Shown here: positions 3,637 to 4,898 of the stretch, piece after piece
How positions within the stretch are numbered: position 1 is the first letter of the stretch
Layout: each line of letters begins with the position of its first letter
Origin: Giardia intestinalis
Taxonomy: Eukaryota
Direction: 5' to 3' (one strand)
NCBI GenBank assembly: GCA_000002435.2
Contig: AACB03000026.1
DNA length: 5,596 nt
The notes under the pieces: generated by a model
The model's database searches: none
What the model was told of the DNA's origin: nothing
The model's input: only the letters and a program-made list of their open reading frames with translations
Program-made: the position numbers and the translations under genes

Positions 3637-3639
3637 TAA

Positions 3640-4898
3640 GCAGGCCACGGTGGAGGCCGCCGCCATGGGCCTGACGATCAGGAGCGACAACTGCAAGTCC
3701 ACCATGGCGGGCGAGGAGGTGACCTTTCTCAACCACCCGGCGTCCCCCACTCCAGCAAGCCTTGCCCCAAAGGCCATCGCAGGTGCTGAGACTGCCCCCA
3801 TAACCATCCACCAGAAGCTCATCCTGATGTCACTCTGTGTGGTCCCGATGGTGAACCACGCCCCCCTGGTCGAGATAGCATCGGACAAGGCGGACTACGA
3901 GGAGCTCGACAGACATCGCACAAGGCTTCAGCACTAACCAGCAGAAGCTGCGATCGCCTGGTCGACTTCCTGGCGTACCCGAAGGAGAAGGGCGGCCCGG
4001 GCCTGCTCATGCCGGGGCTCTACCACGACGAGCTGCGGAGGGCATGGGCCTCCCTGGACGTCAACAAGGGGACCAGAGACCCGGTGGAGCTGCCGGTGGA
4101 CGGCCAGGCACTGCAGGGGAAGGGGACCTACTTCAACCGCCTCCTCACGCGCACACACCAGCTTCCGGACAGAGCGGCGGCCGTACTGTCTGCAGATGTG
4201 CGGCGTGCTGACCGAGGAGGAAAGGGCCCTGAAGCAGAGAGATGGCTCGATCATGGCGCAGACAAGAGGCACCTGCCCGGGCTGCCACACGGCAGACCCT
4301 CGACCGCGACATGAACTGCCCGAAAGCGGCGTGGACCAGGACCACGAGGCACGACATGATCGTCACGTGCCTGTACCTCCGCGTCTCGGGGAAGTTCAAC
4401 GCAGACCTGGAGGTCAAGACCCACAGCCACCTCAGCGACCAGAACCAGAAGCCCGACATCTGGCTCGTCGACAAGTGCAAGGCGATAGATGTGGGCGTCA
4501 TCCAGCCCCGCCAGATGGATGCCTACTACAACGAGAAGGTCAAGAAGTACAGGGACGAGACAGGACGGATCCCTCCACCCCAGTCCAAGAGGCGCCTCGA
4601 GGAGCTCCACGTGGACGTCGAGAAGCTCTCCGTCCGGGCTGCCTTCGCCATCGCCCACATGGCTGCAGAGGCGAACGAGCACCTGACGAAGCTGATCAGA
4701 CGGGCCGGGCCGAAAGCCTGGTCACCCAGAGCGACCGTCTCCTGTCATCCTACTTCTGACAACCGAATGAGTCCATCCCCGGGACCCGACGACAACGATC
4801 GAGAAGGGGCCCAAGACTGGACACGCAGTCGAGTGGAATCCCAACCAGGAGAGAACGCCCCGTTAGCTGCTGCTGATCTGTATGGACAGTATTGAGAA
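3640..4898 (+). pseudogene. Degenerate retrotransposon ORF remnant covering the RT C-terminal region, a linker and the RLE endonuclease domain. It is disrupted by at least two frame changes and by stops.
   Basis: Protein-like translation runs in frame 2 (3640-3934, TAA at 3935). It then continues in frame 1 (3940 to about 4230, TGA at 4312). It then continues in frame 0 (4233-4895, TGA at 4896), after frame-0 stops at 4209 and 4230. No single frame is open across the region. Confidence 0.6.

What the first reader, a model, noticed from the sequence alone, without database searches (positions are those of the whole stretch)
3637..4898. Dead, 5'-truncated RLE-type non-LTR retrotransposon about 270 bp upstream of, and divergent from, the VSP gene
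The post-YADD RT motif (MGLTIRSDNCKS, 3665-3700) and the PD-(D/E)xK endonuclease core (KPDIWLVDKCKAIDVGV, 4449-4499, followed by E..K.KKY) place this in the R2-like, restriction-like-endonuclease class of LINEs. In Giardia that class is represented by the GilM/GilT/GilD (Genie) elements, which are associated with subtelomeres. The truncation point falls inside the RT domain, just after where YADD would lie, which is typical of abortive target-primed reverse transcription. The ORF is split over three frames with stops, so this copy is inactive. Its position next to a VSP start site fits the picture of VSP genes and retroelements sharing dynamic chromosome-end neighbourhoods. The element's antisense or read-through transcription could influence VSP expression.
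Basis: partly seen in the sequence, partly recalled or inferred. Interest (0 to 1): 0.65.

Follow-up and report, generated by a model that had tools for sequence, protein, structure and literature searches.

The report
Dead GilD retrotransposon remnant beside VSP
This is the broken 3' half of a long-extinct Giardia "jumping gene" (the GilD/Genie-2 family of R2-like retrotransposons), sitting 272 bp from the start of a surface-antigen (VSP) gene; both the element family and its habit of lying next to VSP genes are already described, so the finding is correct but ordinary.

Summary
Window 3639-5193 is a 5'-truncated, frameshifted copy of a Giardia non-LTR retrotransposon with a C-terminal restriction-like endonuclease (RLE). 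The stitched translation hits only Giardia "reverse transcriptase/endonuclease" fragments (E down to 8e-188). One of them, XP_001709725.1 of strain WB, is this locus or a near-identical paralogue. The DNA is 86-92% identical to eight other degenerate copies. A profile of the family reaches bona fide R2 proteins, and a predicted structure matches solved R2 structures first (E 5e-8).

Four corrections apply:
- The family fits GilD/Genie 2, the "dead", non-telomeric family, not telomeric GilM/GilT. No telomere repeats or rDNA are present.
- The ancestral stop codon is at 4757-4759. The ORF to 4898 is frameshift read-through. The element continues as 3' UTR to about 5193, including one arm (5019-5193) of the family's roughly 175-bp terminal inverted repeat.
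- The copy carries seven frame-breaking indels and one in-frame 21-bp deletion, but no substitution stop codons.
- The right flank (5226-5596) is shared with flanks of other copies. The 5' loss is therefore more likely a later deletion or rearrangement than abortive reverse transcription.

GilD remnants beside VSP genes are already published, so novelty is low.

The parts
3639..5193 (+). Core of the GilD/Genie-2-type retrotransposon remnant. It is the 3' half, about 1.55 kb of a unit of about 3.1 kb.
   Evidence: blastn gives 86-92% identity to L001-L005, L007 and L008. Homology starts at 3639-3641 and the shared core ends at 5187-5193. The full-length unit is L004 5050-8160, and window 3639 corresponds to L004 6629.
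3641..3736 (+). Last 32 or so codons of the RT domain (post-YADD motif, QATVEAAAMGLTIRSDNCKS...EEVTFLN).
   Evidence: In P0015 the Pfam RVT_1 match ends at residue 268. (Y)ADD lies at 217-220 and the window's first homologous residue is 237. P0005 and P0017 show YADD 17 residues upstream.
3737..4186 (+). Thumb/linker region (PITIHQKLILMSLCVVPMVNHAPL..., SCDRLVDFLAYPKEKGG...), read across two -2 frameshifts.
   Evidence: Codon-wise alignment to the intact-frame copy L008/P0001. The VNYGPL and GGLG motifs are conserved in Spironucleus, Hexamita and other Giardia RTs. Foldseek alignments of the model to R2 structures span nearly the whole 367-residue model.
4274..4319 (+). CCHC zinc knuckle (CPGCHT / TLDRDMNC), split by a 2-bp deletion at about 4293 and with the His mutated to Arg.
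   Evidence: Family consensus is C-x2-C-x7-H-x3-C (P0002: CPGCHTARALDHDMNC). C202, H210 and C214 are invariant or nearly invariant in alignment A3.
4347..4550 (+). PD-(D/E)xK restriction-like endonuclease core: RHD at 4347-4355, KPD at 4449-4457, IDV at 4485-4493, EK..KKY at 4533-4550.
   Evidence: hhalign of the family profile against R2-like P0111 gives prob 89.8%, E 1.8e-6 over CCHC plus RLE. H225, D260, D271 and K287 are (nearly) invariant. Foldseek ranks R2 structures first and influenza PA-N endonucleases next.
4757..4759 (+). Ancestral stop codon (TGA after ...LLSSYF).
   Evidence: It is present at the same alignment column in all 8 copies, and P0001 and P0002 end here.
4760..5193 (+). 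3' untranslated region of the element. The ORF reaching 4895/4898 is frameshift read-through into this region.
   Evidence: It is conserved in all copies, but 28% of columns are variable against 13% in the coding part. The 1-bp deletion at about 4702 puts frame 3 into the UTR.
5019..5193 (+). Right arm of the family's terminal inverted repeat. The left arm is missing from this truncated copy.
   Evidence: This stretch matches, in reverse orientation, sequence upstream of the element in L002, L003, L004, L005 and L007. Self-alignments give inverted repeats of 166-213 bp in L003, L005 and L007. There is no inverted partner in the window.
5226..5596 (+). GilD-associated flank repeat. It co-duplicated with the element, and whether it is part of it is unresolved.
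   Evidence: 86% identity to both arms of the L002 palindrome (608-880 and 4058-4327). 89.6% identity to L005 2655-2247 on the opposite side and strand. Weaker matches to L004.
3367..3638 (.). 272-bp A+T-richer spacer between the VSP ATG and the truncation point. It is unique among the loci examined.
   Evidence: GC is 0.43-0.45 here against 0.60-0.68 in the element. No blastn match to any fetched locus.
190..3366 (-). Neighbouring VSP ORF, divergent from the element, containing 8 copies of a 303-bp tandem repeat (862-3286).
   Evidence: Pfam PF03302 VSP at E 4e-100. TRF reports period 303, 8.0 copies, 99% matches.
3796..3797 (+). Site of the in-frame 21-bp deletion (ALRKIEN/R), shared with copy L004.
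   Evidence: Multiple alignment.
3913..4702 (+). Interval holding the seven frame-breaking indels: -2 at about 3913-3918, -2 at 3932, +1 at 4181, -2 at 4293, -20 at 4562, -1 at 4581, -1 at 4702.
   Evidence: Alignment to seven other copies and codon-wise comparison with L008. Several lesions are shared with other copies or with the WB reference protein P0004.

Best explanation
Window 3639-5193 is an inert fossil of the Giardia GilD/Genie-2 family. This is a diplomonad lineage of R2-like non-LTR retrotransposons whose single ORF encodes a reverse transcriptase followed by a CCHC zinc knuckle and a PD-(D/E)xK restriction-like endonuclease.

The mechanism when the family was alive is inferred from R2. 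The endonuclease nicked the target DNA, and the freed 3' OH primed reverse transcription of the element RNA (target-primed reverse transcription).

This copy cannot do any of that. It lacks the 5' 1.55 kb or so, which held the left inverted repeat, the N-terminal region and the RT up to and including YADD. It carries seven frame-breaking indels and a 21-bp deletion, and its zinc-knuckle His is mutated to Arg.

It keeps the C-terminal 370 or so codons, the ancestral stop (4757-4759), the 3' UTR and the right arm of the terminal inverted repeat (5019-5193).

Its right flank is homologous to the flanks of other copies. It therefore most likely reached its present form by DNA-level duplication or rearrangement within VSP-rich, gene-poor DNA. 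A later deletion then removed the 5' half and placed the remnant 272 bp from a VSP start codon. This last step is inferred, not shown.
For: - Sequence identity to the family. 17 Giardia RT/endonuclease fragments match at E 8e-188 to 1e-38. These include XP_001709725.1 of WB, which reads this same sequence apart from two 1-nt differences. Eight DNA copies match at 86-92% identity.
- RT membership. PF00078 is present in P0005, P0015 and P0017, which overlap the window's first 32 codons.
- RLE membership. hmmsearch of the family profile against 1.8 billion proteins reaches diplomonad RTs and two R2-architecture proteins, P0111 (E 1.4e-5) and P0130 (E 9.9e-4). P0111 matches R2Bm structure 8gh6 at E 4.7e-170. 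hhalign gives prob 89.8%, E 1.8e-6 over CCHC plus RLE. The catalytic columns are conserved. Foldseek of the AF2 model returns seven R2 structures as top hits (E 4.6e-8 to 1.1e-6), followed by PA-N endonucleases.
- Dead. Seven frameshifting indels are present. Every full-length copy examined is also broken into two or more ORFs.
- GilD features from the literature. GilD is the dead family, disrupted by microhomology deletions, and lies in gene-poor regions next to VSPs (PMC2861651). RT remnants lie between head-to-head VSP pairs (PMC7000408 Table 2; bioRxiv 10.1101/2022.03.07.483299). Here VSP genes lie within a few kb in 5 of 9 loci.
- Flank sharing.
Against: - The name GilD/Genie 2 could not be checked against the deposited reference sequences, and the defining paper (PMC64710) is not held. 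The assignment rests on matching published properties.
- Pfam finds nothing on the raw frame fragments or on P0001. A two-sequence profile finds nothing in PDB by sequence.
- The AF2 model is only moderate: mean pLDDT 65, with the RLE part at 62-90.
- Deletion versus abortive TPRT for the 5' end is not resolved. Shared flanks could also reflect site-specific insertion or a longer true element.
Confidence: 0.9

Rival explanations
1. The copy was born 5'-truncated at this very site by abortive target-primed reverse transcription next to the VSP gene.
For: 5' truncation with an intact 3' end is the classic outcome of TPRT. The breakpoint lies inside the RT domain, and the 3' UTR and right inverted-repeat arm are complete. 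A second 5'-truncated copy, L006, also abuts a VSP 5' region.
Against: No target-site duplication or A-rich tail is seen at either end, in the window or around full-length copies. The DNA to the right of the element (5226-5596) is homologous to the flanks of copies L002 and L005, and weakly L004. A fresh insertion at a new site would not have such a flank. GilD is reported to decay by microhomology-mediated deletions (PMC2861651). Lesions shared between copies, such as the 21-bp deletion shared with L004, show copying after damage.
Confidence: 0.25
2. It is a truncated member of the telomere-associated GilM/GilT (Genie 1/1A) families, marking a subtelomeric location.
For: It has the same overall architecture (RT, CCHC, RLE) and the same host. 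GilM/GilT are the Giardia elements linked to telomeres (PMC10999387, PMC7000408).
Against: The window has no TAGGG repeats or rDNA. All close relatives are degenerate fragments interspersed with ordinary genes and VSPs, not head-to-tail arrays. The family consensus is only 24% identical over 308 aa to the intact 883-aa Giardia RT P0089, presumed but not shown to be of GilM/GilT type.
Confidence: 0.02
3. The 217-aa ORF 4242-4895, with an intact RHD/KPD/D/EK nuclease core, is a domesticated and expressed stand-alone endonuclease rather than junk.
For: All RLE catalytic residues are preserved and there are no substitution stop codons in the ancestral frame. The WB annotation calls a 294-aa protein here (P0004). 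Third codon positions vary more than first and second (54 against 35 and 35), and the coding part is less variable than the UTR.
Against: The ORF lacks the first half of the zinc knuckle, which is in another frame. Its C-terminal 65 residues are out-of-frame read-through into the UTR. A 20-bp deletion removes a conserved strand (TLPIIYG). Different copies are broken at different places, so there is no conserved shortened ORF. The codon-position signal is equally explained by divergence among once-active master copies.
Confidence: 0.03
4. The frameshifts are assembly or sequencing indel errors and the copy is less damaged than it looks.
For: The neighbouring VSP also shows frameshifts. The window differs from the WB reference protein P0004 by two single-base indels. 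The authors of the long-read WB assembly report homopolymer indel errors (PMC7000408).
Against: Most lesions are shared with independent data. The -2 at 4293, the -20 at 4562 and the -1 at 4702 are implied by P0004 and P0007 of the Sanger WB genome. The -21 and the two -2 lesions are shared with DH-isolate copies. The missing 5' 1.55 kb cannot be an indel error.
Confidence: 0.05

Closest known systems
GilD (Arkhipova & Morrison 2001), equated here with Genie 2 (Burke et al. 2002) from my memory of those papers, which were not readable here
   Same: Same host genus. All copies are degenerate, with internal deletions and frameshifts. They are interspersed rather than telomeric and lie in gene-poor regions next to VSP genes (PMC2861651). 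The unit is about 3 kb with terminal inverted repeats of about 175-213 bp, where Burke et al. report 'up to 172 bp' (recalled from memory). The architecture is RT plus C-terminal CCHC plus RLE.
   Different: Nothing found contradicts membership. This copy is a half-element with only the right inverted-repeat arm. Direct identity to the deposited GilD/Genie 2 sequences could not be computed here.
Pseudo-RT ('psiRT') remnants annotated between head-to-head VSP pairs in the G. intestinalis WB chromosome-scale genome (PMC7000408, Table 2). XP_001709725.1 is annotated 'Reverse transcriptase/endonuclease, putative'.
   Same: P0004 (XP_001709725.1) reads this same sequence. The arrangement, with the VSP pointing away from an RT remnant, is the one tabulated there and in bioRxiv 10.1101/2022.03.07.483299.
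   Different: The VSP here (over 1058 aa, with eight 101-aa repeats) is not one of the tabulated duplicated pairs, whose largest member is 747 aa. A partner VSP is not visible within the window.
GilM / GilT (Genie 1 / 1A) telomere-associated Giardia LINEs
   Same: They belong to the same diplomonad RLE-bearing clade, with the same domain order and the same CCHC and RHx...(K/Q)PD...D...K motifs.
   Different: Those are about 5.5 kb, intact, in head-to-tail arrays at chromosome ends or rDNA (PMC7000408, PMC10999387). The family here is only 24% identical in protein to the intact Giardia RT P0089, is degenerate and is not telomeric.
R2 elements (R2Bm; PDB 8gh6, 8ibw; R2Tg 9dou)
   Same: The C-terminal thumb-linker-CCHC-RLE module matches. 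There is a profile match to R2-like proteins and R2 structures are the best structural matches. The catalytic KPD...D...EK residues are aligned.
   Different: Sequence identity is only 15-29%. There is no evidence of 28S rDNA specificity. The inverted terminal repeats are not an R2 feature. N-terminal DNA-binding domains could not be assessed in this truncated copy.

Membership tests
RLE-type (R2-like) non-LTR retrotransposons | Reverse-transcriptase domain with a YxDD box, upstream of the endonuclease in one ORF | tested here: met
   PF00078 is present in family members P0005, P0015 and P0017, with YADD 17 residues before the window's first homologous codon. The window itself keeps only the last 32 or so RT codons, 3641-3736.
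RLE-type (R2-like) non-LTR retrotransposons | CCHC zinc knuckle between RT/thumb and endonuclease | tested here: met
   The family has C-x2-C-x7-H-x3-C, and these columns are invariant or nearly invariant across diplomonad and R2 sequences. In the window it lies at 4274-4319, split by a 2-bp deletion and with His changed to Arg.
RLE-type (R2-like) non-LTR retrotransposons | C-terminal PD-(D/E)xK restriction-like endonuclease | tested here: met
   hhalign to R2-like P0111 gives prob 89.8%, E 1.8e-6. hmmsearch gives E 1.4e-5 and 9.9e-4 to two R2-architecture proteins in a library of 1.8 billion. Foldseek top hits are R2 structures at E 5e-8, then PA-N endonucleases. The motifs lie at 4347-4550.
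RLE-type (R2-like) non-LTR retrotransposons | Insertion hallmarks of TPRT (target-site duplication or deletion, defined 3' end, A-rich or repeat tail) | tested here: inconclusive
   No target-site duplication or A-tail is seen at the window's ends or around four full-length copies. The copies are old, at about 8-14% divergence.
GilD / Genie 2 | Every copy is dead, with internal deletions, substitutions and frameshifts | tested here: met
   The window has 7 frameshifting indels plus a 21-bp deletion. All 8 other copies are split into two or more ORFs or truncated.
GilD / Genie 2 | Interspersed in gene-poor regions next to VSP genes, not at telomeres (PMC2861651) | tested here: met
   A VSP lies 272 bp away in the window. 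VSP genes lie within a few kb in L002, L004, L005 and L006. There are no telomere repeats.
GilD / Genie 2 | Terminal inverted repeats (up to 172 bp according to Burke et al. 2002, recalled from memory) | tested here: met
   Inverted repeats of 166-213 bp bound copies L003, L005 and L007, with shorter or more diverged ones in L001 and L004. The window retains only the right arm, 5019-5193, because of the 5' truncation.
GilD / Genie 2 | Nucleotide identity to the deposited GilD / Genie 2 reference sequences | not testable with these tools
   The reference sequences and the defining papers are not available here.
GilM / GilT (Genie 1 / 1A) | Intact ORF, head-to-tail arrays adjoining telomeric TAGGG repeats or rDNA | tested here: not met
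   No TAGGG repeats or rRNA are present. The copy is degenerate and solitary. Identity to the intact Giardia RT P0089 is 24%.

The most novel reading that the evidence does not exclude
GilD remnants, together with their shared flanking repeat (window 5226-5596) and inverted-repeat arms, may be more than bystanders. They could be the cores or breakpoints of the palindromic VSP duplications seen in L002, L005 and L006. If so, the extinct element, or recombination between its inverted arms, drove expansion and reshuffling of the VSP repertoire. Transcripts crossing the arms could feed the small-RNA pathway implicated in VSP silencing. The window would then be one decayed half of such a palindrome, with a second VSP tail predicted within about 1 kb to the right.
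Probability: 0.15. Interest if true: 0.45.

Novelty: already known. Interest (0 to 1): 0.1.

Why it matters
It matters mainly for annotation. The region should be masked as a GilD-type pseudo-RT remnant spanning 3639-5193, not 3637-4898, and the 217-aa and 294-aa "RT/endonuclease" ORFs should not be treated as genes. It adds one more example of the published association between dead retroelements and VSP loci. The shared flanks hint that these loci spread by DNA-level duplication, but this does not open a new question.

Tried and rejected
- Pfam hmmscan on the four raw frame fragments and on P0001 gave no hits. The RLE and thumb regions of this lineage are not covered by Pfam, and the retained RT piece is too short.
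- A sequence profile of P0001 plus P0002 against PDB gave 0 hits. The R2 link needed the large-library hmmsearch, hhalign and a structure search.
- Exact-sequence look-ups of the window's own ORFs (217-aa RLE ORF and 1058-aa VSP) are not on record, so the window's own contig and chromosomal position could not be recovered.
- Telomere repeat search and Rfam found nothing.
- An inverted-repeat search inside the window found no partner for the 5019-5193 arm.
- A target-site-duplication search around four full-length copies found only 4-5 bp chance words.
- The 272-bp spacer (3367-3638) matched none of the fetched loci.
- The defining paper (PMC64710 / doi 10.1073/pnas.231494798) is not held. Burke et al. 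2002 was not found in the library.
- GilM/GilT membership was considered and rejected, as was a functional stand-alone nuclease ORF (see rival explanations).

Full report
**1. The observation**

The coding information runs through all three forward frames.

G+C rises from about 0.43-0.45 in 3300-3600 to 0.60-0.68 from 3600 onwards, consistent with a boundary near 3640.

The neighbour on the minus strand (190-3366) is a VSP by Pfam (PF03302, E 4e-100). Its ATG at 3366 lies 272 bp from the first element base.

**2. Is it more than chance, and what is it?**

Pfam finds nothing in the raw frame fragments. A stitched 430-aa translation finds 17 proteins, all from Giardia, with E from 8e-188 to 1e-38. 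Those that carry a functional name are called "reverse transcriptase/endonuclease" or reverse-transcriptase-domain proteins; several NCBI entries are only "hypothetical protein".
- Three of them (P0005, P0015, P0017) carry PF00078. They show that the window's first homologous residue lies 17 residues after the (Y)ADD box, inside the last 32 positions of the RVT_1 match.
- P0004 (XP_001709725.1, G. lamblia ATCC 50803) reads this very sequence apart from two single-base differences. The locus, or a near-identical paralogue, is therefore already annotated in the reference genome.

**3. Anatomy from comparison with other copies**

I fetched eight other copies, seven from isolate DH (GCA_000498715.1) and one from an ENA metagenome contig.
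- Left boundary: blastn identity is 86-92%, and homology starts at window 3639-3641 in four loci.
- Size: the full-length unit is about 3.1 kb (L004 5050-8160), and window 3639 corresponds to L004 6629. About 1.55 kb of 5' sequence is therefore missing.
- Stop codon: all copies share a TGA at the column of window 4757-4759, after ...LLSSYF. P0001 and P0002 end there.
- 3' UTR: conserved non-coding sequence continues to about 5193.
- Inverted repeat: window 5019-5193 also matches, in reverse orientation, the 5' ends of full-length copies. Self-alignment shows terminal inverted repeats of 166-213 bp in L003, L005 and L007. The window has only the right arm.

**4. State of decay**

I read the window codon by codon against the intact-frame copy L008/P0001.
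- One in-frame 21-bp deletion at 3796, shared with L004.
- Seven frame-breaking indels: -2 at about 3913, -2 at 3932, +1 at 4181, -2 at 4293, -20 at 4562, -1 at 4581 and -1 at 4702.
- No substitution-derived stop codons, and 334 of 360 comparable residues identical.
- The zinc-knuckle His is Arg (TLDRDMNC).
- Several lesions are shared with DH copies or implied by the WB reference proteins P0004 and P0007. They are therefore real and partly inherited, not assembly noise.
- No examined copy has an intact full-length ORF.

**5. Class membership**

A profile of P0001 plus P0002 found nothing in PDB by sequence. An exhaustive hmmsearch of 1.8 billion representatives gave 113 hits.
- Hits included RTs of Spironucleus salmonicida, Hexamita inflata and Giardia assemblage B.
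- Two hits, P0111 (E 1.4e-5) and P0130 (E 9.9e-4), have the R2 architecture of an N-terminal C2H2 finger plus RVT_1.
- P0111 matches the Bombyx R2 structure 8gh6 at E 4.7e-170.
- hhalign of the family profile to P0111 covers the CCHC knuckle and RLE, with prob 89.8% and E 1.8e-6. It aligns RHD, KPD, the D of IDV and EK..KY with their R2 counterparts.
- In a 16-sequence alignment these columns are invariant or nearly invariant.
- An AlphaFold2 model of P0001 (mean pLDDT 65; 62-90 in the RLE part) has seven R2 structures as top Foldseek PDB hits (E 4.6e-8 to 1.1e-6). Influenza PA-N PD-(D/E)xK endonucleases follow.

The RLE/R2-like call is therefore tested and met.

**6. Which Giardia family?**

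The literature available here says three things.
- Giardia has three families, with GilM and GilT telomeric (PMC10999387, PMC7000408).
- Four of seven head-to-head VSP pairs in WB have an RT remnant between them (PMC7000408, Table 2; also bioRxiv 10.1101/2022.03.07.483299).

The window's family is uniformly degenerate. It lies within a few kb of VSP genes in 5 of 9 loci and carries no telomere repeats or rDNA. It is only 24% identical to an intact 883-aa Giardia RT, P0089, which is presumed to be of GilM/GilT type.

The roughly 175-bp inverted repeat fits my recollection of Genie 2 in Burke et al. 2002 ("inverted repeats up to 172 bp"). That paper and Arkhipova & Morrison 2001 could not be read here. 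The name is thus an inference from matched properties, not from alignment to the reference sequence.

**7. How the 5' end was lost**

I found no target-site duplication or A-tail.

More telling, the DNA to the right of the core (5226-5596) is homologous to flanks of other copies.
- It matches both arms of a 909-bp, 95% inverted repeat in L002 that runs into VSP 3' ends.
- It matches the opposite side of L005 at 89.6% identity, and more weakly L004.
- L001's left flank matches the same L002/L005 flank family, though not window 5226-5596 itself.

Flank identity is similar to core identity, so flank and core were copied together.

That favours DNA-level duplication of a GilD-plus-flank unit within VSP palindromes, followed by a deletion or rearrangement that removed the 5' half. 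Alternatives are that the true element is longer than the core, or that insertion was site-specific. I put deletion or rearrangement at roughly 60% and TPRT truncation at about 25%.

**8. Function**

Nothing indicates present function. A regulatory effect on the VSP is untested.

There is a modest excess of third-position variation (54 against 35 and 35). The coding part is also less variable than the UTR, at 13% against 28% of columns. Both are most simply explained by divergence among once-active master copies.

**9. Verdict**

The finding is correct in its core and ordinary. It is a known dead retroelement family, annotated in the reference genome, in a known genomic association. The corrections concern boundaries, family (non-telomeric GilD type rather than "subtelomeric") and the likely origin of the truncation.

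Noticed in passing
window 862-3286 (minus-strand VSP ORF 190-3366): The VSP contains 8.0 copies of a 303-bp (101-aa) tandem repeat at 99% identity. Pfam also reports 8 spurious 'BmKX' cysteine-motif matches, one per repeat.
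   Followed up: partly
window 1-900 (minus strand): The VSP reading frame is itself disturbed. There is a compensated frameshift in the last partial repeat near 870-900 ([23 protein letters not shown] instead of [18 protein letters not shown]). There is another shift near 300. The canonical C-terminal ...[14 protein letters not shown] tail at the window start lies in a different frame from the ORF, which stops at 190. This is either a pseudo-VSP or assembly indels.
   Followed up: partly
window 5226-5596; L002 608-880 and 4058-4327; L005 2247-2655 and 7613-7794: A repeat of about 0.4 kb outside the GilD core recurs in the flanks of other GilD copies. It lies between the element's inverted-repeat arm and VSP 3' ends, so GilD copies sit inside larger palindromic VSP-tail units.
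   Followed up: partly
L006 5578-6663 and 9514-10599 (inverted, 89%), element fragment 6878-8053: A second 5'-truncated GilD fragment lies between a head-to-head inverted VSP pair in isolate DH. The called start of the left VSP overlaps the element fragment.
   Followed up: no
L004 4925-5047: A VSP 3'-end fragment of about 120 bp abuts the left inverted-repeat arm of a full-length GilD copy directly. It is similar to VSP tails in L002, L005 and L006.
   Followed up: no
L008 (ENA ERZ28627677, metagenome scaffold, 2870 bp) 1335-2438: A metagenome-derived copy keeps an uninterrupted 367-aa reading frame from just after the RT through the zinc knuckle and RLE to the ancestral stop. It is the least decayed C-terminal half seen. 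The RT part upstream is still split into separate ORFs.
   Followed up: partly
window 4181 and about 4563, compared with P0004 (XP_001709725.1): The window differs from the WB reference protein's implied DNA by two single-base indels. The window is therefore a different assembly or isolate, a paralogue, or carries or corrects sequencing errors.
   Followed up: no
L002/L003/L007 just outside the window-5193 equivalent (e.g. L003 7645-7674): Three copies share an extra 30 bp or so at the outer edge of the inverted repeat. It contains a small hairpin-like palindrome (CACCGGAAGCAACCGGTG). The window has unrelated sequence there (5194-5225).
   Followed up: no
P0058 (2036 aa, Logan assembly, organism unknown): This is the only long protein matching the whole thumb-CCHC-RLE profile end to end (29% identity, E 6e-17 in the library search). 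It has a very long low-complexity Pro/Ala-rich N-terminus and may be an intact relative of this lineage in an unidentified, GC-rich organism.
   Followed up: no
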